Below, in pieces: positions 3,608-47,956 of a DNA stretch of 57,730 nt. Both the position numbers and the translations under genes were made by a program. Each line of letters opens with the position of its first letter. Within the stretch, counting starts at the first letter, position 1. This DNA comes from a virus (taxonomy: Duplodnaviria; Caudoviricetes). The stretch covers positions 1 to 57,730 of IMG/VR virus record IMGVR_UViG_3300037755_000790, one strand, 5' to 3'. The notes below the pieces were generated by a model, which saw only the letters and a program-made list of their open reading frames with translations, did not search any database and had not been told where the DNA came from.

Positions 3608-3877
3608 TCAGGTGGGTCGTTGCTCGATGAGGTGCCAGACCAGAAACCCGCCGGGAGCCACGGCCGTACCGTGGTACCGGACACGACCGGCGGGCATCGG
3701 GTGGCCAGTCCCGACGGCGATGAACCGGTAGGCGGGACCGGGGGATTCGTCGTGGTGCCAAGCCCAGAACTCGACGACGCCGGTGTCGCGGCAGCCGACA
3801 GCGAGCGGGTCTGAGTGCAGCGTGAACTCGTGCGACTGGCCGTCGACGGGCACCTCGTAGCGGTAGATGGCGCTCAC
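3608..3877 (-). CDS. conserved small phage protein
   Basis: IYRY.VP...GTGH.....Y.GT......VWHL pattern. Confidence 0.7.
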   Translation of the reverse strand: MSAIYRYEVPVDGQSHEFTLHSDPLAVGCRDTGVVEFWAWHHDESPGPAYRFIAVGTGHPMPAGRVRYHGTAVAPGGFLVWHLIEQRPT

Positions 3878-4632
3878 GTCACACCACCCAGGGGCACGGC
3901 TCCCGGGCTGGCCGTCCCCAACCAGCCCGGGGCCGCCGGCGGGACGGTGTTCGGACCGTCCGCGCCAACCGCCGAGACGTCGCGAAACTCCACGGCGGGC
4001 ATCTGTTGGGCCACGGCCTCCGAGCCTCGGGGAAGAAGACTCGGGGCCGCGACCGTCTTGGGTGGGCGAAAGTCGCGGCGCTTGGCCTTCGCCCTACGTC
4101 CGTCGGGGTGGTGCCAGACGACGCCCTCCCACGCCTCGTGCCCGTGCAGCCATTCGCCGAGATCGTCGAAGCCCATCGGGATCTGATTGGCCACGCGTGA
4201 GTCGGTGGCGGACATGTATCCGTGGCGGATGAGCATGTGCTCGACCAGCTTCTCCGGATTGCCGTTGATCTTCGGTCCACACAGTTCATACGTGGCGCCG
4301 AGCACGGGGCCCGGGTAGGTGTCGACGACGCGCTTCAACGCCTCGTCGTGGAACTTGGCGAACGGCGACGACGTCATCGGCTCCCAACCGACGGTCTTGC
4401 CCGTCACGGAGTCGAGTTCGACGATGAGGTAGCCGGGCGGCTGGAGCTTGCCGGGCTTCACTTCGCGCCGAGCCCACCACTGCTGACCGTCGTACGACAC
4501 GCACGTCCCGTCGTACTTCCGCGTCGCTACGCCCTCGCCGGCGAACACCCACGCGCAGCCTGGGTGCCGCTTGCGGGTGACGTACTTCGGGTCCGCCTCG
4601 TCGCGGAGGTAGATGGTCGGGATCTTCCTCAT
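3874..4632 (-). CDS. RNA ligase-like nucleotidyltransferase (DUF5565-like)
   Basis: motif I TRKYDGT, YELCGPKINGNP, motif IV EGVVW, terminal KAK. Confidence 0.75.
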   Translation of the reverse strand: MRKIPTIYLRDEADPKYVTRKRHPGCAWVFAGEGVATRKYDGTCVSYDGQQWWARREVKPGKLQPPGYLIVELDSVTGKTVGWEPMTSSPFAKFHDEALKRVVDTYPGPVLGATYELCGPKINGNPEKLVEHMLIRHGYMSATDSRVANQIPMGFDDLGEWLHGHEAWEGVVWHHPDGRRAKAKRRDFRPPKTVAAPSLLPRGSEAVAQQMPAVEFRDVSAVGADGPNTVPPAAPGWLGTASPGAVPLGGVT

Positions 4633-4754
4633 GACTTCGTCACCCGCTTCCACGCACCTCGAGCGACAGCGGCGAGGACATATAGCGGCAGGAACATGGC
4701 CGTCACGGCGCAGACCGACCGCAGTCGGCGGCCGAGGGACTCTTCGGGCCTCAT
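4629..4754 (-). CDS. small membrane peptide
   Basis: ATGA overlaps at both ends; hydrophobic core. Confidence 0.45.
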   Translation of the reverse strand: MRPEESLGRRLRSVCAVTAMFLPLYVLAAVARGAWKRVTKS

Positions 4755-7086: not shown

Positions 7087-7536
7087 ATGACGATCGAGAC
7101 GACCGGAACCAAAGTCCCGTCCTGGATACCCTCGGACACCGACTTCGGCTCGCGGCTGGCGCTCGTCCGCCACCGCATGGGCTGGAACATCAAAGAGGCC
7201 GCTCGGGAGTGCGGCGTGGCCGCGGCAACGTGGCGACTATGGGAGGTCGACGGCGCCCGGCCACGCAGCCTCATCACGATCGCGCTGACCATCGCCACCC
7301 GAACCGGCTGCGACTACCTGTGGCTCGTCCACGGACCTGATCGTGGGGGGGCGGTACGTACAACTTCGTACGGCACGGGAGAGCGCCTCATCGGCGCGAT
7401 CGGGAAGCCCGGAACGACATCCACCAGACCGGGCACCCGCCCCACTGATCGAGGACGGTCACACACCCGACCGGTGCGGCAGACCCGCCCTGTCGCCGGA
7501 GTGTCGACCCGGCCGCGCACACCACTCACCGTCTAG
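7087..7536 (+). CDS. XRE-family HTH immunity repressor
   Basis: FGSRLALVRHRMGWNIKEAARECGVAAATWRLWE; divergent from the cro/xis gene; low-complexity C-terminal tail. Confidence 0.85.
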   Translation: MTIETTGTKVPSWIPSDTDFGSRLALVRHRMGWNIKEAARECGVAAATWRLWEVDGARPRSLITIALTIATRTGCDYLWLVHGPDRGGAVRTTSYGTGERLIGAIGKPGTTSTRPGTRPTDRGRSHTRPVRQTRPVAGVSTRPRTPLTV

Positions 7537-7546
7537 GGGATTGCGC

Positions 7547-8401
7547 ATGTTAACGGCAAGTAACGACGATCTCCGAATGAGTTACCTCATCGAGCTCCAC
7601 CTCGACGACCTCAGGGCGGCGGGGAAGTCCCCCGCGACGATCGCGGCGAGAAGCAACGTCATCCGCCGCCTCCACGACGCGTTGCCGTTCGGCATCGCCT
7701 ACGGAGCCACCGAACTCATCCAGCAGTGGATGGCCAACCCCGCGTGGGGCCGCTGGTGCCGCGCCACCTACGACTACCACGTCCGCGGCTTTTACCGGTG
7801 GGCCACCGAGTCCGGGATTCTCGACGGCGACCCCACGAAGGCGATGGGGCGCCCAAAACCACCGAGGCTCATCCCCCGGCCCGCGAGCGAAGACGACCTC
7901 GAGCTCCTGCTCGCCCAGGCCGGGGAACCCCTGTTCACCATCGCGGTCCTGGGCGGCTTCGCCGGCATGCGCGTCGGTGAGATGTCCCGCTGCCGGCGGG
8001 AGCACATCACCGAGGAGCGGATCTACATCCCACTGGGCAAGGGCGGCGACCCCGGTACGGTCCCAACCCACCCGTTCCTATGGGAGTCGCTCCGCGACCG
8101 CCCGCCGGGGCTCCTCATCGTCGACCGCCACGGAGAGCCAGTGATCGGCCACTGGATCTCCCAGACGGCGCGGCGTCACCTCGACAAGCTCGGCCTGCCG
8201 GACCTGCACAGCCATCTGCTGCGCCATCGATACGGAACTACCATCCAACGGACATTCGGGAACATCAGGATCACCCAGCAGTGCCTACGTCACGTGCGGG
8301 TGAGCAGCACCGAGGGCTACACGCTCGTCACCAGCGAAGAGTGCGAGACGGCCGTCGCCGCGCTGCCCGTACCAGGAAGGACAGGACCCGCCAGCGCGTA
8401 A
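7547..8401 (+). CDS. int: tyrosine integrase/recombinase (short, 284 aa)
   Basis: GMRVGE (R), GKGG (K), HLLRH (HxxR), LRH, TEGY (Y); AGGGGA RBS. Confidence 0.9.
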   Translation: MLTASNDDLRMSYLIELHLDDLRAAGKSPATIAARSNVIRRLHDALPFGIAYGATELIQQWMANPAWGRWCRATYDYHVRGFYRWATESGILDGDPTKAMGRPKPPRLIPRPASEDDLELLLAQAGEPLFTIAVLGGFAGMRVGEMSRCRREHITEERIYIPLGKGGDPGTVPTHPFLWESLRDRPPGLLIVDRHGEPVIGHWISQTARRHLDKLGLPDLHSHLLRHRYGTTIQRTFGNIRITQQCLRHVRVSSTEGYTLVTSEECETAVAALPVPGRTGPASA

Positions 8402-11811: not shown

Positions 11812-11909
11812 CTCCACAGCCCGTGCGGCAGCCGCGAGAGCGAGCAGCGCCGGGCCGGCAAGTCGCCGCGGGGGCGACTTGCCCCCTACATGGAAGGAGG
11901 TGTCCAGAG

Positions 11910-12485
11910 ATGGATACCGCCAAGATTCGCGCTTTTGTCTCGTCCCGTCGCTTCGCCACCGCATCGTCGGTCGGCATGGTGGCGCTCGTAGCGGGTTACA
12001 ACTCCTACGGGCACCAGTACGACGTGGCGATCATGGCGCACCAGCCGTCGCACTTCGCGGCGGCACTCCCGTTCTCCGTGGACGGGATGCTCCTCGCCGC
12101 CTCGGTCGCCATGGCCGAGGACAAGTCCGAGGGGCGCAGGCCCAGGCTCTGGGCCGTGATCGCGTTCTGGCTGGGTGCCGCTGTGTCGGTGTCCGCCAAC
12201 GTGGCGAGCGTGATCGTGCACTACGGGTTCGACTGGTTGGCGATCGGTGTGTCGGCGTGGCCGCCGATCGCGCTGCTGATCACCGTCGAAGTCTTGTCCC
12301 GCAAGGGCAAGCCGGTGAAGAACCCGAACCGCGTCGAGGGTGGCCGCCGGGCCGCCGCGGCGAGGGCCACGAAGAAGCGGCCGGCCACGCGTCGGCGTAA
12401 GCCGGTGGCCGCGCCGGTCAGCCCCGCCGGGCCGACCAGCAAGCCCGTCCCGACCCTGGAAGAGGTCGAGGCTGCGGTAGCGTGA
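11910..12485 (+). CDS. DUF2637-like four-TM membrane protein
   Basis: SY.H......., LP.SVDG, S..ANV, AWPP.ALL...E motifs; AAGGAGG RBS. Confidence 0.8.
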   Translation: MDTAKIRAFVSSRRFATASSVGMVALVAGYNSYGHQYDVAIMAHQPSHFAAALPFSVDGMLLAASVAMAEDKSEGRRPRLWAVIAFWLGAAVSVSANVASVIVHYGFDWLAIGVSAWPPIALLITVEVLSRKGKPVKNPNRVEGGRRAAAARATKKRPATRRRKPVAAPVSPAGPTSKPVPTLEEVEAAVA

Positions 12486-12709: not shown

Positions 12710-13768
12710 ATGACGAGGAAGGACACCGATGCGGCCGCATCGGAGGCCGCGAAGACGCTGTCACGGCTCGGCGCCAAGAAGGGCGGAACGGCGCGCGCCA
12801 ATGTCCTGACGTCGGACGAGCGGAGCTCCATCGCGAAACGGGCCGCACAGATCAGGTGGCAGAAGGAAGAGGATGACCCCGGCGCGAAGACCCCGGCGCC
12901 GAAACCACGCCGCTCCGACGACGATCCGACACCGTTCTCACTGTTCCGAGGGACGCTCACGGTGGGCGACGTCAGCTTCGAGTGCCACGTACTGAACGAC
13001 CATCGCCGCGTACTCACCCAGCGCGAGGTGGTTCGGATCGTTTCGGGCGGGCGTGAGAGCGGGAACCTAGCGCGGTACCTGCAGCGGAACCCGCTCTACA
13101 ACGGCGACCTCGAGGCCAGGACGATCCAGTTCCGCATACCCGGCGCCCCCAACACGCCGGCCCCCGCGGCGATCGGGTACGAGGCCACACTGCTCATCGA
13201 GATCTGTGACCTGTACCTGCGCGCGCGGGACGCAGACCTTCTCAAGCCGAGCCAACTCCGCCTCGCGCAAATGGCAGAGCTGGTTGTCCGGGCTTGCGCC
13301 AAGGTGGGGATCATCGCACTGGTCGACGAGGCCACCGGCTACCAGGAGGTACGGGCCAAGCAGGCTCTCCGGCTCAAGCTGCAGGCGTTCATCGCCGACG
13401 ACATGCAGGAGTGGGCGAAGATGTTCCCCGATGACTTCTGGTACGAGCTCGCCCGGCTGGAGGGCGTTCGGTACTCCGCTCGCAACCGCCCGCTGCGATG
13501 GGGCAGGTATGTCATGGCGTTCGTCTATGACGCGATCGACGGTGACGTGGGCAAGGAGCTCCGCTCGAAGAACCCGAACCCCCGCTACGGCAAGAACCAC
13601 CACCAGTGGCTGAAGGACTTCGGCCGGGAGCGCGTCAACAACCAGATCCAGCAGGTGATCGCGATCATGAAGCTCTGCGACGACATGCCCGAGTTCAGGC
13701 GCAAGTTCGACCGCGTCTTCAGCAAGTCCCCATACCGACAGTTAGAGTTCGGCCTGTTCGATGGCTGA
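12710..13768 (+). CDS. P63C domain protein
   Basis: KGG.ARA..LT..ER..IAK.AA..RW N-terminus; GIIALVDEATGYQ; W.K.FP..FW; K.HHQWL. Confidence 0.85.
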   Translation: MTRKDTDAAASEAAKTLSRLGAKKGGTARANVLTSDERSSIAKRAAQIRWQKEEDDPGAKTPAPKPRRSDDDPTPFSLFRGTLTVGDVSFECHVLNDHRRVLTQREVVRIVSGGRESGNLARYLQRNPLYNGDLEARTIQFRIPGAPNTPAPAAIGYEATLLIEICDLYLRARDADLLKPSQLRLAQMAELVVRACAKVGIIALVDEATGYQEVRAKQALRLKLQAFIADDMQEWAKMFPDDFWYELARLEGVRYSARNRPLRWGRYVMAFVYDAIDGDVGKELRSKNPNPRYGKNHHQWLKDFGRERVNNQIQQVIAIMKLCDDMPEFRRKFDRVFSKSPYRQLEFGLFDG

Positions 13769-14014
13769 GCAAGCATGGCACCCGGCGGGCCCGACCCACG
13801 CGCGGCGGCGGCGGGCGAGCCCTGTCTGACCCAGAGGTTTTCGCTGGTCAGCAAGCATTCGGGCGGCGGGCCCGAACTATCCAGGACGCAGCGACGCGCC
13901 CCGTTGACAGATGAGCGAATCATCTGTCAACGGGGCGTCTCTGTCTACTCAGCCGTTCGGTTAACCTTCGCTACATCGCGGAGTTGTCGCGCGTACGAAG
14001 CCCGCGCGCTGGCG

Positions 14015-14179
14015 TCAGACCGCGGAGTTGAACGCCGACACGGCACGCTGCGGCCTGCCCTCGGCCGCCTCGGTGACACGTCGGATCGCCTGCGACAGGA
14101 CGTCCCCGTCGAGGGTCCACAGGTCCTTCAGCGGTACGTGGGTGACGTCGATCAGACCGCGTGTGGTCGTCTCGGTCAT
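14015..14179 (-). CDS. fxsA: FxSxx-COOH RiPP precursor-like peptide (54 aa)
   Basis: GGAGG RBS, ATGA-coupled to the HNH gene; leader LIDVTHVPLKDL...VLSQAIRRV and C-terminus AFNSAV. Confidence 0.8.
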   Translation of the reverse strand: MTETTTRGLIDVTHVPLKDLWTLDGDVLSQAIRRVTEAAEGRPQRAVSAFNSAV

Positions 14180-14796
14180 GATGCCTCCCGTTCGATGGCC
14201 AGACTGGCTAGCCTCTCCGCTTTCTGGCGGTGGTACAGCGCTCGATTGGCGATGCGACCGCACTCGCGGCAGATCCGATGCGGGATCCCCCGACGGCTGA
14301 CCTTGATGATGGTATTTGGCTCATCGAAGGGGTGGCCCCGAACGCAGTGGGTGCGGCGGGCGTTGACCGCCGACGGATTGGTCCGCGAGCGCAGAACATT
14401 CTCGCGATGGGTGACCGGCTCTAGGTGCGAGGGGTTGACGCAGTTCCGAACGAAGCACAGGTGGTCAAGGTCCAGTCCCTGCGGGATGTACCCGCCGGCA
14501 TCGACATAGCCCCAGCGGTGCGCCTGGAAGCGACGACGACTCACGTCGAAGTAGCCGTACCCGGGTTTCCCGACGGTTCCCAGGAAAAGCCAGCATTGGC
14601 CAAGATGCGGGGCATCGGCCGGGATGGGTCCATCCCGGTCAACCTTGGACCAGAACCGCTCCGACTGGGATGGCCTTGGCGGCGCTAGCCCGAGCGGGTC
14701 GCCGTGAAGGCGCCAGCGCTGATAGTGAGCCGGACACCATCCGCGGGCGATCTCTTTCCTTACGCAGCCCTCGATCGTGCAGATACGCTTGCCCAT
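14176..14796 (-). CDS. HNH homing endonuclease
   Basis: C.IEGC...GWC..HY.RW, RFWSKV, AHR, DHLC..R.CVNP.HLE.VT..EN, THC..GH. Confidence 0.9.
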   Translation of the reverse strand: MGKRICTIEGCVRKEIARGWCPAHYQRWRLHGDPLGLAPPRPSQSERFWSKVDRDGPIPADAPHLGQCWLFLGTVGKPGYGYFDVSRRRFQAHRWGYVDAGGYIPQGLDLDHLCFVRNCVNPSHLEPVTHRENVLRSRTNPSAVNARRTHCVRGHPFDEPNTIIKVSRRGIPHRICRECGRIANRALYHRQKAERLASLAIEREAS

Positions 14797-14881: not shown

Positions 14882-16213
14882 CTACGGGGTGACCTGCCGG
14901 CCGTCGGTGTAGACGTTGTCGGTTCCCCAGAAGTAGCCCGGGTTGCTGGGATACCAGCTGTGGACCGGGCCGGCCGCGCCGCAGTTGCGGTAGTACTTGG
15001 TCGAGAAGACGTTGCCCTCGTAACGGACGTTGCGCCCGGTCGGGCCACCGGTGTACGTGCAGTACTGGCCGGCGGTCGCGAGCTTGTTGTTCTTGATCAG
15101 CAGTCCGTCGAGGGTGCCCTCGTCGTAGATGCTGATCGCCGAAGAGCAGCCCTGCGGCCCGTCGATCGCGCCCGGTCCGGTGTACGGCGGGACGTTCCAG
15201 CGGGAGCAGTCGGCCGTGTTGTGCTCGATCCGGCCGGATCCGTGGTTCCAGCCGATCGCGGCCTGATGCGCCCCGGCGGTGTACGTCATGTCGTGGATGT
15301 AGGAGTCCAGGATCACGACGTTGAACCCGCCACCGATGCCCGTCGAGGTGTGGTGGACGTGGACGCGGATGGCGGTGTAGTTCGACCCGTCCGCGATCGG
15401 CGCCTGATCACCGGGGTTGCCGTTCGTCTCACCGTGCGTGAACTCGGTGTCGATGACCGTCAGGCCCAGGTAGGTGCCGGGCGTCATCCAGTGCGGCGCG
15501 ATGCTGCCGATGATCAGCGAGTTCTTGATGGTGATGTTCGCCGCGCGGATCCGCAGCAGACCGCCGAAGACGCAGCCGTCATAGACCGCGTTGGCCTTCT
15601 GCAGGTGGTTGTCCTGCTCGCCATCGCCCTCGTCGCAGACCTTCAGGTCGCTCATGGTCCGGCCCGTGTGCTTGTACCCGGTGCAGTGCTCGTCCGGGAA
15701 GGCCGGGAACGGCGCGCAGAACAGGGTGTCGCCTGGCGGAGGTGTCGGGTCCGGTGTCGGTGGAGGTGTCGTCACGGGCGGTGTAGTGGTCACTGGCGGC
15801 GTTGTGACCGGTGGTGTGGTCGTCACCGGCGGAGTCGTCGAGGGTGGCACGGTGGCTGTGGGGGTGGCCGTCGGGGTCACCGTGGGACCGACAGTGGGGG
15901 ATGGTGACCCCGACGGGGACGGTGTTGGCGACAGGTCCGCCACCTCGCGCTGCCACATGGCGCACAGGTCCGCGCGCAGCTGCCGCTGACGTGCGTTCGT
16001 GGCGTCGTCGACGAGGTCCGTGCAGTACAGCTGTACCTGCTGCTGCGCGTAGGCGAGACGCTGGTCGGCGACGTCGGCGGACGCGCCGGGAGTGCGGAAA
16101 GCGACCGCCCCGAGGGCGAGGACCGCGGCGAGGGACAGCACGGCGAAGACTCGACCACGCGTGATCCGGCTCGGCTGGTGCTCGGCTCTGTGGCCGCGTA
16201 TCTCGTGATCCAT
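14882..16213 (-). CDS. exported protein: Pro/Thr linker plus right-handed beta-helix-like domain
   Basis: hydrophobic signal/TM segment, (TTPPV)n linker, FPDE..TG, ANITIKNS, DSYIHD repeats. Confidence 0.7.
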   Translation of the reverse strand: MDHEIRGHRAEHQPSRITRGRVFAVLSLAAVLALGAVAFRTPGASADVADQRLAYAQQQVQLYCTDLVDDATNARQRQLRADLCAMWQREVADLSPTPSPSGSPSPTVGPTVTPTATPTATVPPSTTPPVTTTPPVTTPPVTTTPPVTTPPPTPDPTPPPGDTLFCAPFPAFPDEHCTGYKHTGRTMSDLKVCDEGDGEQDNHLQKANAVYDGCVFGGLLRIRAANITIKNSLIIGSIAPHWMTPGTYLGLTVIDTEFTHGETNGNPGDQAPIADGSNYTAIRVHVHHTSTGIGGGFNVVILDSYIHDMTYTAGAHQAAIGWNHGSGRIEHNTADCSRWNVPPYTGPGAIDGPQGCSSAISIYDEGTLDGLLIKNNKLATAGQYCTYTGGPTGRNVRYEGNVFSTKYYRNCGAAGPVHSWYPSNPGYFWGTDNVYTDGRQVTP

Positions 16214-16608
16214 CAGGACTCCACTCGCTCGGGCCAATGCCAAGTGCCACCGGCGTAGGACGCTTCACGCCATCCGCAGGCGCAGTATCGGAACGGGTTG
16301 CCGTGCGTCTGCGCGTCAACGCAGGACGGCGTGCCCGCGTGCTCGGTTCCCTCGTCGTACTTGCAGACGTTGAAGAACTCGCCGGTGGGGTTGAGTACCG
16401 CCAGGCTCACGGCGTCGTCGTAGAACCATTGCTCGGCGTTGCGAATCGGCCGTCCCTCGCTGGTGCTGTAGCTCTCCGCCGGCTTCGTTTCGACGGTGAT
16501 CCAGGCGCCCACCTCGGTCACCATGGCCGCGCGGCACTGCGCGGTGTACTCGCCACCCGGCGTGCCAAACGAGCGATAGTGCACGACCCGACCAACGCTC
16601 GGCTTCAT
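16213..16608 (-). CDS. conserved actinophage hypothetical protein
   Basis: MKPSVGRVVHY...RAA.VTEV...L.VLNP.G.FF...GTWHWP; GAGGAG RBS. Confidence 0.75.
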   Translation of the reverse strand: MKPSVGRVVHYRSFGTPGGEYTAQCRAAMVTEVGAWITVETKPAESYSTSEGRPIRNAEQWFYDDAVSLAVLNPTGEFFNVCKYDEGTEHAGTPSCVDAQTHGNPFRYCACGWREASYAGGTWHWPERVES

Positions 16609-16616
16609 GTCGCTCC

Positions 16617-17246
16617 TCACTTGATGATCCTTCGTGCGGTCAGGAAGGCATAGATGATCTGCTTCTTGACCCGCTGGCCCGACTGCGGCGCCACAACGAC
16701 CATGTTGTTGCCGATGTAGATGCCGACGTGCGAACGCGAGAGGAAGACAAGATCGCCTAGCCGCAGATTGGCTCTCGACACGCGGACGCCACGGCTGATC
16801 AGCGCGCCGGTCTGGTGCGGCAGCTTGATCCCGATGCGGGCGTAGGAGGCGACGACGAGGCCGGAGCAGTCGAAAGCGTTCGGGCCGGCGGCACCCCACC
16901 GGTACGGGTCGCCGACTTGCGCGAGGGCGTAGTTGACGACGGTCCGGATCCGCGACGTGGCGACCGGCTTGGTCGCTGGCTTCTTCGCCGCCGGTGCCGC
17001 TGTCGGACGGGCGCAGGTGAGGCGGAGTCGGTGGCCGGCGTAGATGCGTGAGGGATTCGAGATCCCGTTGCCGGTGGCGAGCGCGGTGTAGGCCTTGGCG
17101 GTGCCGCAGTGGCGGGCGGCGATACCGGTAAGGGTGTCACCGGAGTGGATGGTGATCGTCACGGTCTTGGTCTGGGCGGCTTGGGCGGGGGTGGCGACGG
17201 TCAGCGTCGCGGCGATCGCGACTACGGCGATCAAGGGTCGTAACAC
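16617..17246 (-). CDS. secreted LysM-NlpC/P60 peptidoglycan endopeptidase
   Basis: signal peptide ending AQA; IHSGDTL..IA LysM; PYRWG...FDCSGL and SHVGIY. Confidence 0.9.
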   Translation of the reverse strand: MLRPLIAVVAIAATLTVATPAQAAQTKTVTITIHSGDTLTGIAARHCGTAKAYTALATGNGISNPSRIYAGHRLRLTCARPTAAPAAKKPATKPVATSRIRTVVNYALAQVGDPYRWGAAGPNAFDCSGLVVASYARIGIKLPHQTGALISRGVRVSRANLRLGDLVFLSRSHVGIYIGNNMVVVAPQSGQRVKKQIIYAFLTARRIIK

Positions 17247-37778: not shown

Positions 37779-37972
37779 GAGGCCACCGCCGCTTCGTCGC
37801 CCTCGCGGGCCGTGACGACGCGCCCGTAGGCTCCGCACGTACAGGTCAGGTGATGGGTGGTCACAAGCGCACAGTCGGGCTCATGTCTCGGTATCTGCCG
37901 GATGGACTCTTCGGACAGTCCGTAGTAGTCGGCCGCCGCACGAATCTGGTCTTCGGTGAGATCGGTTGTCAT
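37775..37972 (-). CDS. small His/Cys protein
   Basis: H..DC.......CTC; coupled. Confidence 0.55.
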   Translation of the reverse strand: MTTDLTEDQIRAAADYYGLSEESIRQIPRHEPDCALVTTHHLTCTCGAYGRVVTAREGDEAAVAS

Positions 37973-38691
37973 CGGGCGTTCGCCACCATCCGGGACTGGA
38001 ACAGGTCTCGGTCCGCGTCACCGGACGCCCAGCCGAGTCGGTACGTGTCGTCTAGTTCGGCCTTGTGGACGATCGGGTTCAGATGCTCCACGACCGAGTC
38101 CAACGCCATGGCGAAAACGCCCAACTGCTTGGCTTTCGTGACCACCTCGTCGTCACTGAACATGTGGCCGTAGCACTCCGGCCACGCCCAGCCCGGACCG
38201 TCCCACGACGCGCCCACGTCGGCGATGTACTGCCGGTCGATGAGCATGTGCGTCGCGTGCTCCCCCCGCATCACCCTCGGGTTGGCGAGATCGTTGGTCC
38301 CGATCACCGACGGACGGCGGCCGGCCTTCTCCGCCGCCACACCCACGACCCGGATCAACTCATCAGCCCAGCCGGCGTGGAAACGCACGTCGTCGCCGGT
38401 GACGAACAGCCACGACTCGCCCGTGCTGCGGTAGGCGTGATTCACTTTCGGGCCGAACGGGTGATCCCACGTCGTCAAGACGTTGGCGCCCGCCGCGGTC
38501 CACGCCGAGACGCATTCCGCCTCGTCCGCGTGACACACCGCGTACGCCCGGCACCGATCCGTCGACTCCCGCAGCGAATCCATGAACGGGCCGGCGTGAC
38601 CCGGCCGGCCGCGCGTCGGCACCACCACCGCGATGTCGATCGGCTGCGGAGACAGACGCAGCCCAGGACCCTTGAAACCCTTCCACGCCAT
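37969..38691 (-). CDS. glycosyltransferase family 2
   Basis: VVVPTRGRP, FVTGDD..F..GW, Y.H.F.D.E, VEH. Confidence 0.85.
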   Translation of the reverse strand: MAWKGFKGPGLRLSPQPIDIAVVVPTRGRPGHAGPFMDSLRESTDRCRAYAVCHADEAECVSAWTAAGANVLTTWDHPFGPKVNHAYRSTGESWLFVTGDDVRFHAGWADELIRVVGVAAEKAGRRPSVIGTNDLANPRVMRGEHATHMLIDRQYIADVGASWDGPGWAWPECYGHMFSDDEVVTKAKQLGVFAMALDSVVEHLNPIVHKAELDDTYRLGWASGDADRDLFQSRMVANAR

Positions 38692-39195: not shown

Positions 39196-39512
39196 CGGAC
39201 CGCCCCGTTCTCGACACCGGCGAGGATCGCGGTGATCGACGAGATGCACCCGTGCGTCCACTCCACCGACTCCGGCGGCGGTGGAGCCTGGTACAGCATC
39301 GCGTCCACGTTCTTCGACGTTTCCTCGAAGCCCAACTCAAGGTGGTGGTAGCACAGGGAGTTGACGAGCGTCCCGCCAAGGCTGTGACGGCTCTGCGTGG
39401 CCATGCCCTCGCCGGTGTTGACGTAGATCAGCATCAGCAGAAGCCGGCGGGTCTCGTCGAGGTCCCGACGTACAGCCTCGGACAGCGTCGGCTTGCGGCG
39501 GAAGAGGCTCAT
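39192..39512 (-). CDS. hypothetical protein
   Basis: ATGA-coupled. Confidence 0.55.
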   Translation of the reverse strand: MSLFRRKPTLSEAVRRDLDETRRLLLMLIYVNTGEGMATQSRHSLGGTLVNSLCYHHLELGFEETSKNVDAMLYQAPPPPESVEWTHGCISSITAILAGVENGAVR

Positions 39513-40348
39513 GACGCCACCCGCTCGTCCTCGTCGGCGCTGCGCCGCTCGGCTTCACGTTGCGCTTCGATGATCGCCTGCTGCGCCATGTACCGGTCAT
39601 ACGTCAACGAGAACGTCTTGATGTGACCGAGCTTCACGGCCGTGTTCACCCATATGGGGATACCGGCGAAGCCAGCCCGGAAGCAGAACGTGATGTCCTC
39701 GGACATGCGCCGGCCGTAGAAGTCCGTCTCCTGGAACCAGGGGTACGCGTCAGAGAACCCCACCATCCCCGGCCGCTTCGGGGTTCGGAAGTCCCGCACC
39801 CTCGCCAGCACCGACCGGTGGATCAGCAGGCAAGCCGCGCCGGTGGCGTGCACCTCGAACATGGAGTCCAGCGGAAAACGCTTGTAGCGGATGAACTCCG
39901 GCCGCTCCAGCGTACCGACCACGTCATAGAGCGTTGGCTCCAGTTCCGCCGTCTCCGACAGGGTGAAACAAAGGCCGCCGATGATCGGGGCCTTGTCCTC
40001 GTCGGCGAACTCGAGGAGCTTCTCCACGGTGTCCGGCTCGAACGTCATGTCCGAGTCCAGGAACAGCAGCCACGGCGCCGAGGAGTACTTCAGGAACTTC
40101 TCGCACACCTCGTTACGGGCCGCGCTGACGTTCGCTGAGGACACCTGCGACACGAACCCGCCTCGGCCACCGGTCACGTGCTTAGGGCCACGCGTCGACT
40201 CGTAGTCCACGAGGCCCAGGACGGACTCCATGAACTCACCGTTCACGTGACTCGGGCGCACCCAGGCCACGACGACTCCCTCAGCCTCCGCCTCGGCCGG
40301 CTCGTCGCACGCGGACGCGTCGGTGGGACTTACTTCCACTTCGGACAT
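39509..40348 (-). CDS. glycosyltransferase (GT-A, DxD)
   Basis: ARN....FL, LFLDSDM, G..CLLIHR.V, SEDI.FC, GHIK. Confidence 0.85.
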   Translation of the reverse strand: MSEVEVSPTDASACDEPAEAEAEGVVVAWVRPSHVNGEFMESVLGLVDYESTRGPKHVTGGRGGFVSQVSSANVSAARNEVCEKFLKYSSAPWLLFLDSDMTFEPDTVEKLLEFADEDKAPIIGGLCFTLSETAELEPTLYDVVGTLERPEFIRYKRFPLDSMFEVHATGAACLLIHRSVLARVRDFRTPKRPGMVGFSDAYPWFQETDFYGRRMSEDITFCFRAGFAGIPIWVNTAVKLGHIKTFSLTYDRYMAQQAIIEAQREAERRSADEDERVAS

Positions 40349-44474: not shown

Positions 44475-47400
44475 TCATGATGCGAAGACGTCGATGACGC
44501 AGCGGGTGGCCACTTCGGCGGACAGCAGCTCCCCGAGGTCGGGTGCTAGGCGGTCCTGGAGTACGGCCCACGGGGTGGGGGAGGTGGCCCACAGGTTCAG
44601 GCCGTCGCCCTCCGTCCAGAAGGTGAGGTCGGACCGGTAGGTCATCCGCCGCCGATGGGTGCGCCGAGCCGGGGTCGTGGGCGTCTTGGCGCGGGTCATG
44701 GCGGCCATGGACATCAGCGAGTCGGGTGGGTCCTCGTCCATCTCGCGATAGAGGGACACGATCTTGCGTGCCGCTGACCGCTTCTGATCAGCCGACGCGT
44801 CGACGGCGGACAGTCGGCCGGCGGCGGCGTGGACGCCGTTGCGGTTCAGCGTCCCGTCGGGCTCACGGACGGGTAGCTTGCACAGTTCCTTGCTGTACTC
44901 GTCCTGGCCTTCCGCCGGCTCATCGTGGATCAGGCACGCGGCTCGCCACTGCTCGTCGTCGTAGTCGGCCTGCGTGAACTGCGACCACGGGGTGTCCGAG
45001 AACGACCGGGACCGGTACTCCTCGTCGGGTTCCTCGCCCATCTCGGCCGCGTCCTCGACGTCCGTTTCGTCTTCTTCGCCGAGGGGGATGTCGGTCACCT
45101 CGTCGCCGAACGCGACCCGGATGTGGGTCAACGTCACCGGGCCGGCGAGGTCGACGAGGTCCTCGAGCTCGGCCGGGTCGTCGGTGTACAGCAGCGTGAT
45201 GTGCGGATGCCAGGGCGTGTGCTGGTCGGGGAGGTCGAAGTCCAGGTCGTCGATCTCGTCCTCGACGAGGGCATGGGCGGATGCCAGATCCTCACCGGAG
45301 ATGAGGAGGACGTCGCACGGCTCGTCGCCGTTGGGGTTGAACATGGCCAGCGAGAAACCGTCGACCTCGAGCACGTCTTCGAGGTCGTCGGCGACCGTCC
45401 GCGCGGCGTCGATGATGGCGGCACGCTGGTCCTCGTCGTAGTCGTCCGCCTTGCCGAGGAACAGGAGCGTGACGTGGAGCTGGTCGGCGTCCTCCCCACC
45501 TTCGACGGCGAGGCGTTCGAGGTCCGCCGGGGACGGGACGAGGGCGATCATCGCGCCGGTGTTCTCATCCGGGTACTCGGCGCGGGTGATGTCGACGTCG
45601 TCCGGATCGGTGATGGAGCGCTTCGCGTCGCGCTTGAGGAACTCATCGAGCGGAAGGGTGGAGACCAGATACCGGGATGCCGCCTGATGGCCGAGCCCGG
45701 CCGCGATGGCCTCACGGTACTTGTTCGGCCGGCCGTCGTTCGGGTCGGGCAGTTCGACAACCGCTCGGTGCAGAATCTCCTCTAGCCGTTTGGACGTCGG
45801 CGAGGCGACCCCGCGATTCCGGCTGGTCTCCTCATCGATGGCGCGCCCTAGTGCGGCGATGCCGGCCTCCGACCCGACGCCCTGCTGTAGCGCGTGGCGC
45901 AGGTCGAGTTGTGTCGGTTTGGTCAGGCCGTCTCCGCCGGAGAACGCCTTCACGCTGACGCCGAGCTCGCCGGACGTCGCCACCGTAGACGGAGCGGGCG
46001 AGTCGTTGTCGAGGATGGACTGGATGTCCGCCTCAAGTTGGCGGGTGACCGCCCAGTGCGCTGGTTCCTCCCACTCCTCCGGCGACGGCGCGTCGCCGGT
46101 TGTCTCCCGTGCTACCTGGAGTACCCGGTCCCGGTCGGTGCCGCCACCCGTCCGGGCCTGGTAGGCGTCCATCGACTGGAGGATGTGACGGATCCGCGCC
46201 TCGCGTGACCGTGCCGACGACGGGATCGGGGGGAGGTTCAGCGCGACGTTGATGCGCTTCAACTCGGCCGCGGACTTGGTGTGCAGGACCGTTTCGGCTT
46301 CGTCCATCGGGCCGCCGAGAACAGACTCGCGGGCCTTCGGGGCCGCCTTCGCCGGGGATGCCTTGGTGGGCGGGCCGCCCACGGCGTCGAGGCGGTCCGC
46401 GAGTTCGACGTACCTGTCGGCGCGGCCGAGAGCGCCCTGCCGGGTGCCCTGCCGGGGGCTGATCGACGCGACGGGCAGCCTGGCCGCGCCTTCGCGCATC
46501 CCGGCGGCTTCCTCGCGCAACGCGGCGGCAATGGACTTGGGGCTGTCGCCGTCGTCGAGTCGGGCCTGCACCTCGTCGAGTACGCCACGGTCGATGTCCA
46601 TGTCCTTGGCGATCTCGCGGGCGTTCAGACGCGGAGTGGAGTCCGATGGCGTCGTGGTGGTCTTCGGGGCGACCGCCTTGGTGGCAGCCTTCGCGACCTT
46701 CTTTGGCGCGGCCGGCTTGGCCGCGTCGGAAGCGAGGGCCCGCATGGCGACCTTGATCTGGTCGGTGTCTTTGTCCTGCTCGTCCTTCGGCAGCTCGGCG
46801 AAGGGGACGTCCAGATCCCCGCCGGCAGCCCAGTCGTTGCGTGACAGCCACGCCTTGTGGATCTCTTCGCCAACCTCCAGGCGTGTCTTCTCGTCGCTCA
46901 GGTCTACGGTGCCGCCGCGCTGCTTGAGGATGCGCTGGACGACTTCGCCGGCGGCCTTGTTCTCGGCCTGCCAGTCGCCGGGCAGATCGTCGTAGCTGGT
47001 GTTGGCGATGTCCACTTCATCGGAGTCGTGCGCGTCGATCCACTTCTGGTCCTTGGTCTTCTTGACGCGTGGCTCGAATGTCCCGTCCGCCTGCTTGCGG
47101 GTCTTGCGCCAGTCCTCATGCAACGCGTTGGCGATCTTGGCGGACTCGACCTGATCCGCACTCCCAGTCGACTTCTTGGCGGGCGTCGCCTTCTCCGCGG
47201 CGGGCCGCACCGTGTCGTGCGTCGCCGGAACGTTGCCGATGAACGTCTGATCCGGACGGTGTAAAGAGGGGCCGTCGATGTCCCATCCGCCGGGCAGACC
47301 ACGATCGCGGGCGAAGTGCTCCGCGATGTGGAGCTGCAGCGCGCTCTTGGCTTGCAAAATGCCCGGCGGGACGTCGATGCCCAGTCCGTCGGCGACCTTG

Positions 47401-47903
47401 CGGAGCTTCGCTGACGTGAGGCGCGTGTCGCCGCTCAGTAGCGCGATGACCTCGGCCTCGGACTGGGCCGCGGACACCTTGGCCACCGCGTCGGCCACCT
47501 CTACGGCGGCGGCCTGCTGGGCCTTCGTCTTCGCCGCCGGCTTGGCTTCTACCGCGGCCTTCTCCACCGACTTCTTCGCGGGCGCCTTCTTCGCCCCGGC
47601 GGCCTTCATCGCGGCCGGATGTGTGGCGCCCTTCACGCGCTCGGCCTGATACCGCTTCCGGTCATCTGGCGACAGGGCGTCGTACTGCTCCCGCTGCGGC
47701 ACGGTGAGCTTTCGCATGCCCGACGGGATGGTCACGCCGATCGCCAGCCCGTAGTGTGCCGCGCCCTCGGCGCTGATCACCTGCCGGCCGGGGGCCGGGT
47801 TGCTCCTCCCGCCACGGGCGCGCGCGATCTCGCCATCCATCCGCATCCGCACCAGCGCCATCCGCGCCACCGCGCGTGCCCGAGGAACCGTGGACGTGGT
47901 CAT
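44475..47903 (-). CDS. polyvalent head-associated protein with 2H phosphoesterase and RyR-repeat-like domains
   Basis: LHVTL and PHITL (2H); H..W...Y..LP / H..W...VPF.EL...EQ.KD repeats; CKLPV.EP.G.LNRNGVHAAA domain. Confidence 0.8.
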   Translation of the reverse strand: MTTSTVPRARAVARMALVRMRMDGEIARARGGRSNPAPGRQVISAEGAAHYGLAIGVTIPSGMRKLTVPQREQYDALSPDDRKRYQAERVKGATHPAAMKAAGAKKAPAKKSVEKAAVEAKPAAKTKAQQAAAVEVADAVAKVSAAQSEAEVIALLSGDTRLTSAKLRKVADGLGIDVPPGILQAKSALQLHIAEHFARDRGLPGGWDIDGPSLHRPDQTFIGNVPATHDTVRPAAEKATPAKKSTGSADQVESAKIANALHEDWRKTRKQADGTFEPRVKKTKDQKWIDAHDSDEVDIANTSYDDLPGDWQAENKAAGEVVQRILKQRGGTVDLSDEKTRLEVGEEIHKAWLSRNDWAAGGDLDVPFAELPKDEQDKDTDQIKVAMRALASDAAKPAAPKKVAKAATKAVAPKTTTTPSDSTPRLNAREIAKDMDIDRGVLDEVQARLDDGDSPKSIAAALREEAAGMREGAARLPVASISPRQGTRQGALGRADRYVELADRLDAVGGPPTKASPAKAAPKARESVLGGPMDEAETVLHTKSAAELKRINVALNLPPIPSSARSREARIRHILQSMDAYQARTGGGTDRDRVLQVARETTGDAPSPEEWEEPAHWAVTRQLEADIQSILDNDSPAPSTVATSGELGVSVKAFSGGDGLTKPTQLDLRHALQQGVGSEAGIAALGRAIDEETSRNRGVASPTSKRLEEILHRAVVELPDPNDGRPNKYREAIAAGLGHQAASRYLVSTLPLDEFLKRDAKRSITDPDDVDITRAEYPDENTGAMIALVPSPADLERLAVEGGEDADQLHVTLLFLGKADDYDEDQRAAIIDAARTVADDLEDVLEVDGFSLAMFNPNGDEPCDVLLISGEDLASAHALVEDEIDDLDFDLPDQHTPWHPHITLLYTDDPAELEDLVDLAGPVTLTHIRVAFGDEVTDIPLGEEDETDVEDAAEMGEEPDEEYRSRSFSDTPWSQFTQADYDDEQWRAACLIHDEPAEGQDEYSKELCKLPVREPDGTLNRNGVHAAAGRLSAVDASADQKRSAARKIVSLYREMDEDPPDSLMSMAAMTRAKTPTTPARRTHRRRMTYRSDLTFWTEGDGLNLWATSPTPWAVLQDRLAPDLGELLSAEVATRCVIDVFAS

Positions 47904-47956
47904 GCCACCCCCGAACATGGTTGAGCCCCGTTGGAGGCTGAGGAACGGAGGAAGGG

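What the first reader, a model, noticed from the sequence alone, without database searches (positions are those of the whole stretch)
14015..14179. Phage-encoded orphan FxSxx-COOH RiPP precursor
The 54-aa peptide has the leader pattern and AFNSAV end of actinobacterial FxsA precursors, which are normally encoded beside the radical-SAM maturase FxsB (cyclophane-forming) and TIR/NTPase-TPR genes. No radical SAM gene is in this window. It is the last, translationally coupled gene of the late region. Inference: a decoy or hijacked substrate for a host Fxs conflict or signalling system.
Basis: partly seen in the sequence, partly recalled or inferred. Interest (0 to 1): 0.75.

Follow-up and report, generated by a model that had tools for sequence, protein, structure and literature searches.

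The report
Phage-borne orphan FxsA peptide precursor
A temperate actinobacterial phage carries a well-conserved copy of a small bacterial peptide precursor (FxsA) without the enzyme that normally modifies it, which suggests the phage exploits or interferes with a host immune-like system that uses this peptide.

Summary
Window 14015-14179 (-) encodes a 54-aa peptide that matches NCBIfam TIGR04268 (FxSxx-COOH) at 42.4 bits (cut-off 28) over the whole profile. It keeps every invariant family position, has the phage's codon bias, has a Shine-Dalgarno site, and overlaps the upstream gene by ATGA.

The window is a temperate actinophage record. It has no radical SAM gene, HExxH peptidase or FxSxx-TPR gene. 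In a Streptomyces reference genome these lie directly beside fxsA, followed by TIR-NB-ARC-TPR, MoxR and CHAT genes.

A related metagenome contig keeps the gene (65% identity, dN/dS about 0.39) directly behind the same beta-helix gene. The HNH gene in the window is therefore an insertion. Three further unrelated phage or phage-like contigs carry FxsA-like genes, also without FxsB.

A complex model places the phage peptide on a cellular FxsB like a substrate (0.84 against a best control of 0.00).

My best reading is that the peptide is a substrate mimic that works through the host Fxs machinery, most likely as counter-defence. The direction of the effect is untested and the host is unknown. I found no report of this in print. 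Interest 0.68.

The parts
14015..14179 (-). fxsA-like gene: a 54-aa FxSxx-COOH precursor. The leader is roughly residues 1-45. The core ends in AFNSAV at the C-terminus.
   Evidence: TIGR04268 scores 42.4 bits against a cut-off of 28. The alignment with 30 relatives is. Codon-position GC is 0.65/0.51/0.87.
14184..14189 (-). Shine-Dalgarno site GGGAGG, 4 nt upstream of the fxsA ATG and inside the 3' end of the HNH gene.
   Evidence: Read directly from the sequence.
14176..14796 (-). HNH_3 homing-endonuclease gene (206 aa). Its TGA overlaps the fxsA ATG as ATGA. It is an insertion relative to the related contig L072.
   Evidence: Pfam PF13392 scores 38.3 bits. The start is an ATG with GGAGG upstream. 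GC3 is 0.76 against 0.87 for its neighbours. The gene is absent from L072.
14882..16243 (-). Gene for a 453-aa protein with an N-terminal hydrophobic segment, a Pro/Thr-rich linker and a right-handed beta-helix. It is the ancestral upstream neighbour of fxsA.
   Evidence: L072 encodes a homolog (47% identity over 361 aa, E 4e-61) whose stop overlaps the fxsA start. The beta-helix assignment comes from the protein atlas. There is no Pfam or PHROG hit.
13897..13937 (.). Perfect 18-bp inverted repeat with a 5-nt loop. It is a probable bidirectional terminator between fxsA and the convergent P63C gene.
   Evidence: The RNA fold of 13870-14020 gives -74.4 kcal/mol, z -4.11. It has no T tract, so the consensus terminator scan does not list it.
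12710..13768 (+). Convergent P63C-domain gene, the last gene of the + strand block. It is context only.
   Evidence: Pfam PF10546 scores 67.2 bits.

Best explanation
The gene encodes a functional FxsA-type RiPP precursor that the phage lineage captured from an actinomycete host and keeps without any maturase. It is made late in infection, coupled to the last late genes.

Because it retains the leader and core positions that the family conserves, the host's own FxsB radical-SAM/SPASM enzyme should recognise it, and then the host's HExxH peptidase. It therefore acts through the host Fxs machinery. In cells, that machinery is wired to a TIR-NB-ARC-TPR / MoxR / CHAT conflict system.

I favour an antagonistic role. 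By supplying precursor or mature peptide when host expression fails, or by competing for FxsB, the peptidase or the TPR sensor, the phage keeps the TIR-STAND effector from firing. This would be analogous to a phage-encoded antitoxin mimic.

Shown here: family membership, the phage context, absence of partner genes from the record, conservation in a related phage, recurrence in other phages, and a predicted substrate-like fit to FxsB.

Inferred: that host FxsB really modifies the peptide, that the Fxs-linked system is antiviral, and the direction of the effect (block rather than trigger).
For: Membership is shown.

The window is a phage:
- It encodes TerL, a portal fusion, a head-tail adaptor, tail proteins and a lysin-domain tail protein, plus an integrase at 7343-8401.
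- The tail protein at 20942-24454 matches 37 phage records, 36 from Streptomyces and 1 from Thermobifida.

Partner genes are missing from the window: FxsB, HExxH, FxSxx_TPR and any radical SAM each gave 0 matches.

The canonical cellular locus was verified in G003. All on one strand lie fxsA, FxsB (438.8 bits), HExxH (172 bits), a 1007-aa TIR+NB-ARC+TPR protein, a MoxR-like AAA protein, a CHAT protein and a second TIR-NB-ARC-TPR protein.

The gene is conserved. L072 has the beta-helix homolog followed by fxsA (65% amino-acid identity, dN 0.23, dS 0.61, ratio 0.39), again with an ATGA overlap and no HNH gene.

FxsA-like genes recur on other phage DNA:
- G001/L004 is an unrelated phage with MCP, portal, TerL and primase. 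It carries an FxsA-like gene (24 bits, below the cut-off but alignable).
- G002/L005 is an actinophage with a second-type FxSxx peptide (24.4 bits; 45% identity over 42 aa to a Streptomyces FxsA that lies beside FxsB).
- L022 is a phage-like contig with a replication initiator, an HNH gene and families of unknown function (PHROGs). Its FxsA is the best hit to my family HMM (66.9 bits).
- None of the three records or the MAG holds FxsB.

Close cellular relatives sit beside FxsB: L073 and L074; in L075 the start of a radical-SAM ORF (CxxxCxxC) follows fxsA but was not scored against TIGR04269.

The complex model of L073 FxsB with the phage peptide scores 0.84 against a best control of 0.00. The three runs share at least 87% of contacts and the partner pLDDT is at least 64. 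In the tool's calibration, 58 of 80 solved complexes and 2 of 110 mismatched pairs reached the mark. Leader residues 7-39 lie on FxsB 241-278 and 373-391. Core residues 48-54 lie near residues 17-19, 75-79 and 111-113, next to the CxxxCxxC cluster.

Literature:
- Kaur et al. 2020 (PMC7159879, section 24 read) link FxSxx peptides, a metallopeptidase and a radical-SAM/SPASM enzyme to VMAP conflict systems with a TIR-AP-ATPase-TPR effector. They propose that the processed peptide is a toxin or signal.
- HXS, another system built on an rSAM-matured protein, was shown to be antiphage (PMC13128918, abstract read).
Against: - The host is unknown, so I could not show that it has an Fxs system.
- The record is rated 76% complete, so a maturase could lie in missing DNA.
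- Late, operon-end expression is unusual for anti-defence genes, which are often early.
- No promoter of its own was found. The sigma-70 scan is unreliable in actinomycetes.
- No RNA data exist.
- The core is canonical, not an obviously dead variant, so it could just as well be an agonist.
- The Fxs-linked system is not in PADLOC v2 and has no published phage phenotype that I could find.
- The complex score may partly reflect memory of solved rSAM-peptide complexes. It also used a FxsB from an unknown organism, not the host's.
- The phage copies other than the window's score below the TIGR04268 cut-off.
Confidence: 0.5

Rival explanations
1. The peptide is an agonist, or a lysogenic-conversion or kin signal. 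The host matures it into the same signal as the host's own FxsA. In lysogens or in lysates it primes or triggers the Fxs-linked system. That would exclude superinfecting phages or inform neighbouring cells, like a phage communication peptide that borrows host processing.
For: The phage is temperate, with an integrase. The gene sits in a moron-like place, at the operon end before a strong terminator. In G002 the peptide lies next to an XRE-like repressor region. The core is fully canonical. Kaur et al. propose that the peptide amplifies the system (PMC7159879, section 24).
Against: The gene is translationally coupled to late genes in both related phages, with no promoter of its own detected. 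Triggering a TIR effector late in one's own lytic cycle would be costly. In G001 and L022 the gene lies inside lytic or replication modules.
Confidence: 0.2
2. The peptide works independently of FxsB. It might act unmodified, for example as a C-terminal ligand of a TPR protein. Or phage enzymes such as glycosyltransferases might modify it, so that it plays a role unrelated to host Fxs.
For: In G001 the FxsA-like gene lies within a cluster of glycosyltransferase, methyltransferase and epimerase genes, and overlaps the methyltransferase start. The window also encodes two glycosyltransferase-like proteins, at 37969-38691 and 39509-40348.
Against: The window's glycosyltransferase genes are about 24 kb away. 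The leader positions that the model places on FxsB are conserved in the phage copies, which is hard to explain without FxsB recognition. Sugar clusters of this kind in actinophages are known to glycosylate virion proteins (recalled, not checked here).
Confidence: 0.1
3. The gene is a passenger with no function. It would be a recently captured host fragment, possibly moved along with the HNH homing endonuclease.
For: Small accessory genes at operon ends are often neutral. A mobile HNH gene abuts it. Each phage copy is a singleton in IMG/VR at the sensitivity used.
Against: The gene is present without HNH in the related contig L072, at the same place. The two copies have diverged (dS 0.61) but dN/dS is 0.39 and all invariant residues are kept. 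GC3 is 0.87, matching the phage, whereas HNH is at 0.76. At least three other unrelated phage contexts have acquired such a gene independently.
Confidence: 0.1
4. The gene is not an orphan. The maturase and other Fxs genes lie in the missing part of the phage genome, making a complete phage-borne RiPP cluster.
For: CheckV rates the record 76% complete and it is linear. Complete RiPP clusters do occur on phages (bioRxiv 10.1101/2020.10.01.322628, search listing and abstract only).
Against: In cells, FxsB lies directly beside fxsA in 25 of 30 Streptomyces loci and in the metagenome contigs L073 and L074. Here both flanks of fxsA are read and hold other genes. Three further phage or phage-like records also lack FxsB. 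The contig begins beside TerL at one end, as a virion-end genome would.
Confidence: 0.07

Closest known systems
Cellular FxsA precursors of the FxSxx-COOH / FxsB system (NCBIfam TIGR04268 and TIGR04269; FxsB is reported to form cyclophanes, PMC10114670 passage read)
   Same: The length is the same (54 aa, against 49-91 aa). The conserved leader positions are kept (G8, D11, L17, L20, L28). The exact C-terminal F-N-S-A-V fits F-x-S-x-x-COOH. The HMM score is above the cut-off. Identity is 63% to a relative (P0006) whose 907,717-bp contig appears to hold an FxsB too; this rests on equal contig length and source and is an inference.
   Different: It is encoded on a phage. It has no FxsB, HExxH peptidase or TIR-NB-ARC-TPR gene nearby, or anywhere in the 57.7-kb record. 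It is embedded in a late structural operon behind a beta-helix gene and an HNH gene.
VMAP ternary conflict systems with a peptide-processing module (Kaur, Burroughs, Iyer, Aravind 2020, PMC7159879)
   Same: This is the peptide type that those systems process. The linked genes were verified here in one Streptomyces genome: TIR-NB-ARC-TPR, MoxR-like AAA and CHAT.
   Different: The paper describes cellular loci only, in the passages I read.
HXS antiphage system (HxsA matured by the rSAM enzymes HxsB and HxsC; PMC13128918, abstract read)
   Same: A short-motif substrate (HxS there, FxS here) is matured by a radical-SAM/SPASM enzyme and tied to phage defence.
   Different: HxsA is a host periplasmic effector. 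No phage-encoded copy is described there. The enzyme family and the motif differ.
Phage-encoded mimics of labile host immunity components (T4 Dmd, phage pseudo-ToxI RNA).
   Same: The proposed logic is the same: the phage supplies the neutralising or 'all is well' component of an abortive-infection module.
   Different: Those are antitoxin mimics of toxin-antitoxin pairs. Here the mimic would be a RiPP precursor that needs host enzymes, and the target would be a STAND/TIR sensor. Nothing has been shown.
Phage communication peptides (arbitrium AimP). Recalled from memory.
   Same: A small phage-encoded precursor is processed to a short C-terminal peptide.
   Different: Arbitrium phages encode their own receptor, and the peptide has no radical-SAM modification. 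No receptor candidate was found here.

Membership tests
FxsA / FxSxx-COOH precursor (TIGR04268) | The profile HMM score is at or above the curated cut-off of 28 bits. | tested here: met
   The score is 42.4 bits, E 5.9e-11, over profile positions 1-44 of 44. The six-frame search gives 41.3 bits.
FxsA / FxSxx-COOH precursor (TIGR04268) | The F-x-S-x-x motif lies at the exact C-terminus. | tested here: met
   The peptide ends in F50-N-S52-A-V54 followed by a stop. F50 and S52 are invariant in 31 of 31 aligned sequences.
FxsA / FxSxx-COOH precursor (TIGR04268) | It is a small precursor with the conserved leader pattern. | tested here: met
   It is 54 aa. D11, L20 and L28 are invariant, and G8 and L17 are at least 90% conserved; all are present.
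FxsA / FxSxx-COOH precursor (TIGR04268) | FxsB cross-links it into a cyclophane. | not testable with these tools
   Only a model is available. The complex with a cellular FxsB scores 0.84 against a best control of 0.00, with the core at the radical-SAM site.
Complete Fxs system (fxsA + FxsB + HExxH + FxSxx TPR/TIR-NTPase) | An FxsB radical-SAM/SPASM gene lies beside fxsA. | tested here: not met
   TIGR04269 gave 0 matches. PF04055 gave 0 matches, with the control positive in 14 of 14 genomes. tblastn gave a best E of 1.2. In cells, 25 of 30 Streptomyces loci have FxsB within 1.5 kb.
Complete Fxs system (fxsA + FxsB + HExxH + FxSxx TPR/TIR-NTPase) | An HExxH-motif maturation protein (TIGR04267) is present. 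| tested here: not met
   There were 0 matches at E <= 1 in the window. The gene is present beside FxsB in G003.
Complete Fxs system (fxsA + FxsB + HExxH + FxSxx TPR/TIR-NTPase) | An FxSxx-system TPR protein (NF040586), with TIR and NB-ARC domains, is present. | tested here: not met
   There were 0 matches at E <= 1 in the window. G003 has two in the locus, both TIR+NB-ARC+TPR.
Phage anti-defence protein (functional class) | It relieves a defined host defence system when expressed. | not testable with these tools
   There are no experimental data. There is no PADLOC match for the peptide or for the host system's proteins, apart from a generic radical-SAM hit.

The most novel reading that the evidence does not exclude
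Orphan fxsA genes on actinophages are a new class of counter-defence: precursor mimics. On this reading the Fxs module is a guard circuit. A short-lived, FxsB-cyclised C-terminal peptide is the 'host translation is intact' ligand that holds a TIR-NB-ARC-TPR immune sensor off. Phages that shut down host expression then supply their own precursor, matured by pre-existing host FxsB and peptidase, to keep the sensor silent. If so, phage genomes give the first functional handle on the FxSxx-COOH system, whose role remains unknown, and on how STAND/TIR sensors can be controlled by RiPP ligands.
Probability: 0.2. Interest if true: 0.85.

Novelty: new variant of a known kind. Interest (0 to 1): 0.68.

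Why it matters
The FxSxx-COOH/FxsB module is widespread in actinomycetes. It is over the cut-off in 86 of 201 sampled genomes of one Streptomyces-titled genus, and FxsB relatives number in the thousands. Its enzyme chemistry is known, but its biology is only predicted: a link to TIR-STAND conflict systems.

Phages that repeatedly pick up only the precursor are independent evidence that the module matters during infection. They also provide a simple reagent, one 54-aa gene, to test the idea. Express it in an Fxs+ host and see whether FxsB modifies it and whether phage sensitivity changes.

It would also be the first case I know of where a virus carries a RiPP precursor that depends on host maturases. 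I found none in print. The library lacks most subscription journals, and supplements were closed.

Tried and rejected
Searches for close phage relatives:
- Megablast of window 1-25000 against 50,697 GenBank phages found no match.
- tblastn of the peptide against the same phages gave only E 2 and E 4, which is chance.
- The word-index protein search returned only the window's own protein.
- The search for related loci with the peptide or alignment A2 in IMG/VR matched 58 and 107 pattern stretches; none was confirmed.
- The same with the peptide in genome contigs matched 600 stretches; none was confirmed.

Degenerate DNA patterns for the C-terminal core:
- The TGA version in IMG/VR gave 4 stretches: 1 clear FxsA, 1 second-type candidate and 2 chance hits.
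- The TAG version gave 4 stretches, all chance.
- A Streptomyces-type LNAFDS.V pattern gave 2 stretches, both chance.
- The TGA version in genome contigs gave 29 stretches, of which only L022 is a clear FxsA.
- These patterns are narrow, so the phage survey gives a lower bound, not a frequency.

Other phage-side searches:
- The L004 and L005 peptides found only themselves in IMG/VR.
- The 453-aa protein has no relative in IMG/VR by pattern or in GenBank phages.

Host inference was weak:
- TerL is at most 32% identical to actinophage terminases.
- Only one genome relative was found, a Streptomyces sp. at 34%.
- The window has no tRNA genes.
- The nearest named cellular FxsA and FxsB are from Micromonosporaceae: Luedemannella, Plantactinospora and Actinoplanes.

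Expression and occurrence:
- No RNA holder was listed.
- Laid contigs only showed the source run, plus a 191-nt near-identical piece of 13818-14008 in a second study.

Literature: the triceptide papers PMC12912966 and PMC11499958 hold nothing on Fxs. PMC11118758 holds nothing on phage-encoded precursors in the passages found.

The contexts of the closest metagenomic relatives (P0003, P0005, P0007, P0010) could therefore not be read.

Rejected reading: the 82-aa extension from GTG 14263. It overlaps HNH in another frame, has a GC3 of 0.54, and homologs start at the ATG.
Full report
**What is there.** The minus strand of window 14015-14179 holds an ATG-to-TGA ORF of 54 codons.
- Its product matches NCBIfam TIGR04268.1, 'FxSxx-COOH cyclophane-containing RiPP peptide'. 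The score is E 5.9e-11 and 42.4 bits against a curated cut-off of 28, over the full profile. A six-frame search of the record finds the same place at 41.3 bits.
- The local Pfam copy has no model for it. The protein collection carries a precomputed PF27839 label for it.
- GC by codon position is 0.65/0.51/0.87, the signature of the phage's genes (overall GC 67.5%). No other frame shows it.
- GGGAGG lies 4 nt before the ATG, and the ATG overlaps the stop of the upstream gene as ATGA.
- A longer 82-aa reading from an upstream GTG is rejected. That extension has a GC3 of 0.54 and overlaps the HNH gene, and homologs begin at the ATG.

**Family.** phmmer against 1.84 billion representative proteins gave 30 hits at E <= 1e-3 (2 at <= 1e-10; the best is 65% identical). 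All are 49-91 aa.
- In the 31-row alignment the invariant columns are D11, L20, L28, F50 and S52. The nearly invariant columns are G8, L17, A49, N51 and A53. The phage peptide has all ten and ends in AFNSAV at the C-terminus.
- Four of the ten best hits are named 'FXSXX-COOH protein' by their source.

**The replicon is a phage.** The window is a whole IMG/VR record, linear, rated 76% complete by CheckV.
- It encodes a large terminase (55676-57313), a 2203-aa portal fusion with a LAGLIDADG domain, a head-tail adaptor, a tape-measure-like protein, and a 1170-aa tail protein.
- It also encodes a tail protein with lysin domains (16617-17246), two glycosyltransferase-like proteins, RNA-ligase-like proteins, a ParB-like protein, DUF2637 and P63C proteins, and a tyrosine integrase at 7343-8401. 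It is therefore temperate.
- It has no close relative among 50,697 GenBank phages.
- Its terminase is at most 32% identical to actinophage terminases: 728 records, led by Mycobacterium, Arthrobacter, Gordonia and Microbacterium phages.
- Its 1170-aa tail protein matches only Streptomyces phages (36 records) and one Thermobifida phage.
- The only genome relative of the terminase is in a Streptomyces sp. at 34% identity.
- The host is thus some actinomycete and is not identified further.

**Local anatomy.** Nearly all late genes are on the minus strand. The end of that operon reads as follows:
- lysin-domain tail protein;
- a small protein;
- a 453-aa protein (14882-16243) with a hydrophobic N-terminus, a Pro/Thr linker and a right-handed beta-helix (atlas leads only; no Pfam or PHROG hit);
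- an 85-nt spacer;
- an HNH_3 endonuclease gene (14176-14796; ATG with GGAGG upstream);
- fxsA;
- about 77 nt further on, a perfect 18-bp hairpin at 13897-13937 (fold of 13870-14020, -74.4 kcal/mol, z -4.1);
- the convergent P63C gene.

The HNH gene has a GC3 of 0.76, against 0.87 for fxsA and 0.88 for the beta-helix gene.

**It is an orphan.** In the window I found:
- no FxsB (TIGR04269);
- no radical SAM domain at all (PF04055; the control was positive in 14 of 14 genomes);
- no HExxH maturation protein (TIGR04267);
- no FxSxx-system TPR protein (NF040586);
- nothing by tblastn with a real FxsB (best E 1.2).

For comparison I read one cellular locus, in genome G003. A locus from this genome bears the title Streptomyces hyderabadensis. 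On one strand lie, in order:
- fxsA (47.1 bits);
- FxsB (438.8 bits);
- an HExxH protein (172 bits);
- a 1007-aa TIR + NB-ARC + TPR protein (836 bits to NF040586);
- a MoxR-like AAA protein;
- a 768-aa protein without Pfam hits;
- a CHAT-domain protein;
- a second TIR + NB-ARC + TPR protein.

This is the arrangement that Kaur et al. 2020 describe as a peptide-processing module attached to VMAP ternary conflict systems (PMC7159879; section 24 read in full, other passages by search).

In a sample of 201 genomes of that genus, 86 have a TIGR04268 match over the cut-off. Of the 30 best Streptomyces loci, 25 have an FxsB match within the 1.5-kb flanks (the call examined 32 loci, two of them from other genomes).

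**Conservation in a related phage.** The one metagenome scan (pattern [AS]VSAFNSA[IV]; 178 stretches, 4 confirmed) gave L072, a 1305-bp contig.
- L072 encodes a homolog of the 453-aa beta-helix protein (47% identity over 361 aa, E 4e-61).
- That gene's stop overlaps, again as ATGA, the start of an fxsA that is 65% identical to the window's.
- No HNH gene lies between them. The HNH gene in the window is therefore an insertion, and the coupling of beta-helix gene to fxsA is ancestral.
- Between the two fxsA copies dS is 0.61 and dN is 0.23, a ratio of 0.39 (only 54 codons, so this is rough).
- The other three confirmed contigs, L073-L075, are 44-46% identical by the global matrix (41-47% by the best tblastn segment). 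They are of the cellular type. In L073 and L074, fxsA is followed at once by FxsB: TIGR04269 scores 478 bits in L073, and the partial L074 copy scores 145.5 bits. In L075 fxsA is followed by the truncated start of a radical-SAM ORF with the CxxxCxxC motif, which I did not score.
- Two of those cellular peptides fall below E 0.001 for TIGR04268, and L072's copy scores 19.9 bits. The curated model is therefore less sensitive than context. The window's copy is an unusually good match.

**Recurrence in unrelated phages.** A narrow DNA pattern for the core followed by TGA found 4 stretches in IMG/VR, of which two are relevant.
- L004, in record G001 (46 kb, 73% complete), is a true phage. It has a major head protein, portal, TerL, adaptor, tail protein and primase.
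  - It shares only one weak protein match with the window.
  - Its FxsA-like gene scores 24 bits, below the cut-off, but has the family's leader and core. It lies between a glycosyltransferase gene and a methyltransferase gene whose start it overlaps.
  - That cluster also holds an epimerase/dehydratase gene, two more glycosyltransferase genes and a GH25 lysin gene.
- L005, in G002 (29.5 kb, 62% complete), is an actinophage whose tail protein is 30% identical to the window's.
  - It encodes a 59-aa peptide ending in an FNS-type C-terminus, with a different leader (24.4 bits).
  - The peptide is 45% identical over 42 aa to a Streptomyces FxsA variant that sits beside FxsB (L063).
  - Its codon-position GC is 0.65/0.75/0.92, so I treat it as a candidate.
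- L022 is the only clear FxsA among 29 pattern matches in the species-genome collection.
  - It is a 12.7-kb contig binned in a Chloroflexota MAG, but phage-like. It has a replication initiation protein, an HNH endonuclease, a MerR-like regulator and several phage families of unknown function, all on one strand.
  - Its FxsA is the best hit to an HMM built from alignment A1 (66.9 bits).
  - The 3-Mb MAG has no FxsB at E <= 1e-10.
- Neither G001 nor G002 has FxsB (tblastn).
- Further patterns found only chance matches: a TAG stop (4 stretches) and a Streptomyces-type core (2 stretches).
- These scans see only a small part of sequence space. The count is the window plus L072 plus three unrelated phage contexts, and that is a lower bound.

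**Origin.** By global alignment the window peptide is 65% identical to L072 and 67% to P0003, whose context is unknown.
- It is 63% identical to P0006. P0006's contig has the same length (907,717 bp) and the same source as that of the FxsB P0035. I infer that they share a contig; this is not shown.
- The nearest named relatives of that FxsB are Micromonosporaceae: Luedemannella flava at 66%, Plantactinospora endophytica at 64%, and Actinoplanes spp. at 64-65%.
- The Luedemannella FxsA is the best named match to the A1 HMM (57.6 bits).
- The top-scoring Streptomyces FxsA peptides belong to other subtypes.
- A host near these lineages is a lead and no more.

**Can a cellular FxsB take it?** I modelled the complete FxsB of L073 (with an alignment of 45 relatives) together with the phage peptide (alignment A1).
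- The score was 0.84, against 0.00 for the best of three controls.
- The three runs share at least 87% of contacts, and the partner pLDDT is at least 64.
- In the tool's calibration, 58 of 80 solved complexes and 2 of 110 mismatched pairs reached the mark. Those counts hold only roughly here, because I supplied my own alignments.
- Leader residues 7-39 pack on FxsB 241-278 and 373-391. Core residues 48-54 reach residues 17-19, 75-79, 111-113 and 135, next to the CxxxCxxC motif (C26, C30, C33).
- This supports a substrate-like fit but does not show it. It may partly reflect solved rSAM-peptide complexes, and the enzyme is not the host's.

**Mechanism.** The following are shown:
- a conserved, apparently translatable FxsA on phage DNA;
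- no maturase in the record;
- conservation under purifying selection;
- repeated capture by phages;
- a predicted fit to FxsB.

The rest is inferred. I infer that the peptide works through host FxsB and the peptidase and bears on the TIR-NB-ARC-TPR system. I favour antagonism (about 0.35 of the total probability). The phage would supply the ligand, or compete for the enzymes, so that the sensor stays off. This fits production late in infection, when host synthesis has failed, and resembles phage antitoxin mimics (recalled).

The agonist or lysogenic-conversion reading (0.2) fits the temperate lifestyle and the operon-end position. A role independent of FxsB (0.1), a neutral passenger (0.1) and a maturase in missing DNA (0.07) are less likely, for the reasons given under rival explanations.

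The HXS system shows that an rSAM-matured product can be an antiphage effector (PMC13128918, abstract read). PADLOC v2 has no model for the Fxs-linked proteins, apart from a generic radical-SAM hit.

**Novelty.** Four full-text searches found no report of phage-encoded FxsA or of orphan RiPP precursors on phages:
- 'FxSxx-COOH' (2 papers);
- triceptide/FxsA;
- phage-encoded/precursor peptide/RiPP/prophage;
- cyclophane/radical SAM/prophage/anti-phage.

Limits apply. The library lacks most subscription journals. Supplements were closed, and the source data of PMC7159879 may list such copies. The scan's own earlier findings could not be consulted.

The peptide is a new member of a known family. 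The phage-borne, maturase-less arrangement is a new variant.

**Verdict.** The finding is of real interest because a single 54-aa gene makes the function of a widespread but uncharacterised immune-like module testable.

Noticed in passing
window 14176-14796 (-): A free-standing HNH_3 homing-endonuclease gene is inserted between the beta-helix gene and fxsA. Its GC3 is lower (0.76). It is absent at the same junction in the related contig L072, yet the ATGA coupling to fxsA is kept.
   Followed up: yes
window 49054-55665 (-): A 2203-aa ORF combines a phage portal domain (residues 98-313) with a LAGLIDADG domain (residues 524-588). It may be an intein-bearing portal fused to further head-associated domains.
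   Followed up: no
window 44475-48026 (-) and 3874-4653 (-): An 1183-aa protein carries a 2'-5' RNA ligase / LigT phosphoesterase domain. A separate 259-aa protein is RNA-ligase-1-like. Both are RNA-repair-type functions, which can point to countering tRNA- or RNA-cleaving defences.
   Followed up: no
window 7343-8401 (+), 11823-12485 (+), 12710-13768 (+): These genes encode a tyrosine integrase, a DUF2637 protein and a P63C protein. The phage is therefore temperate. No tRNA gene was found in the window, and attP was not located.
   Followed up: partly
window 37969-38691 (-) and 39509-40348 (-); L004 2338-6976: Both FxsA-carrying phages encode glycosyltransferases. In G001 the FxsA-like gene lies inside a cluster of glycosyltransferase, methyltransferase and epimerase genes and overlaps the methyltransferase start. 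This may be coincidence (a virion glycosylation cluster) or a link to peptide modification.
   Followed up: partly
L022 (8 kb of a 12.7-kb contig): A contig binned in a Chloroflexota MAG looks like phage or prophage DNA of 67% GC. It carries a replication initiator, an HNH gene and phage families of unknown function, along with an FxsA gene. The binning may be wrong.
   Followed up: partly
L073 60-971 and L075 2-997: In two cellular-type metagenome contigs the gene upstream of fxsA is an AAC(3)-like acetyltransferase gene. It scores 189-193 bits, below the 270-bit cut-off, so it is not a confirmed aminoglycoside-resistance gene.
   Followed up: no
window 13818-14008: A 191-nt contig in a second study's soil run is near-identical to the terminator region just downstream of fxsA (2 substitutions and 2 indels). 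The phage or a close relative therefore occurs elsewhere.
   Followed up: partly
L167 (G003 contig C104, 162500-181500): The Streptomyces Fxs locus carries two TIR-NB-ARC-TPR genes that flank MoxR-like AAA and CHAT genes and a 768-aa gene without Pfam hits. G003 also has a second FxsB/HExxH/TPR set on contig C1.
   Followed up: partly
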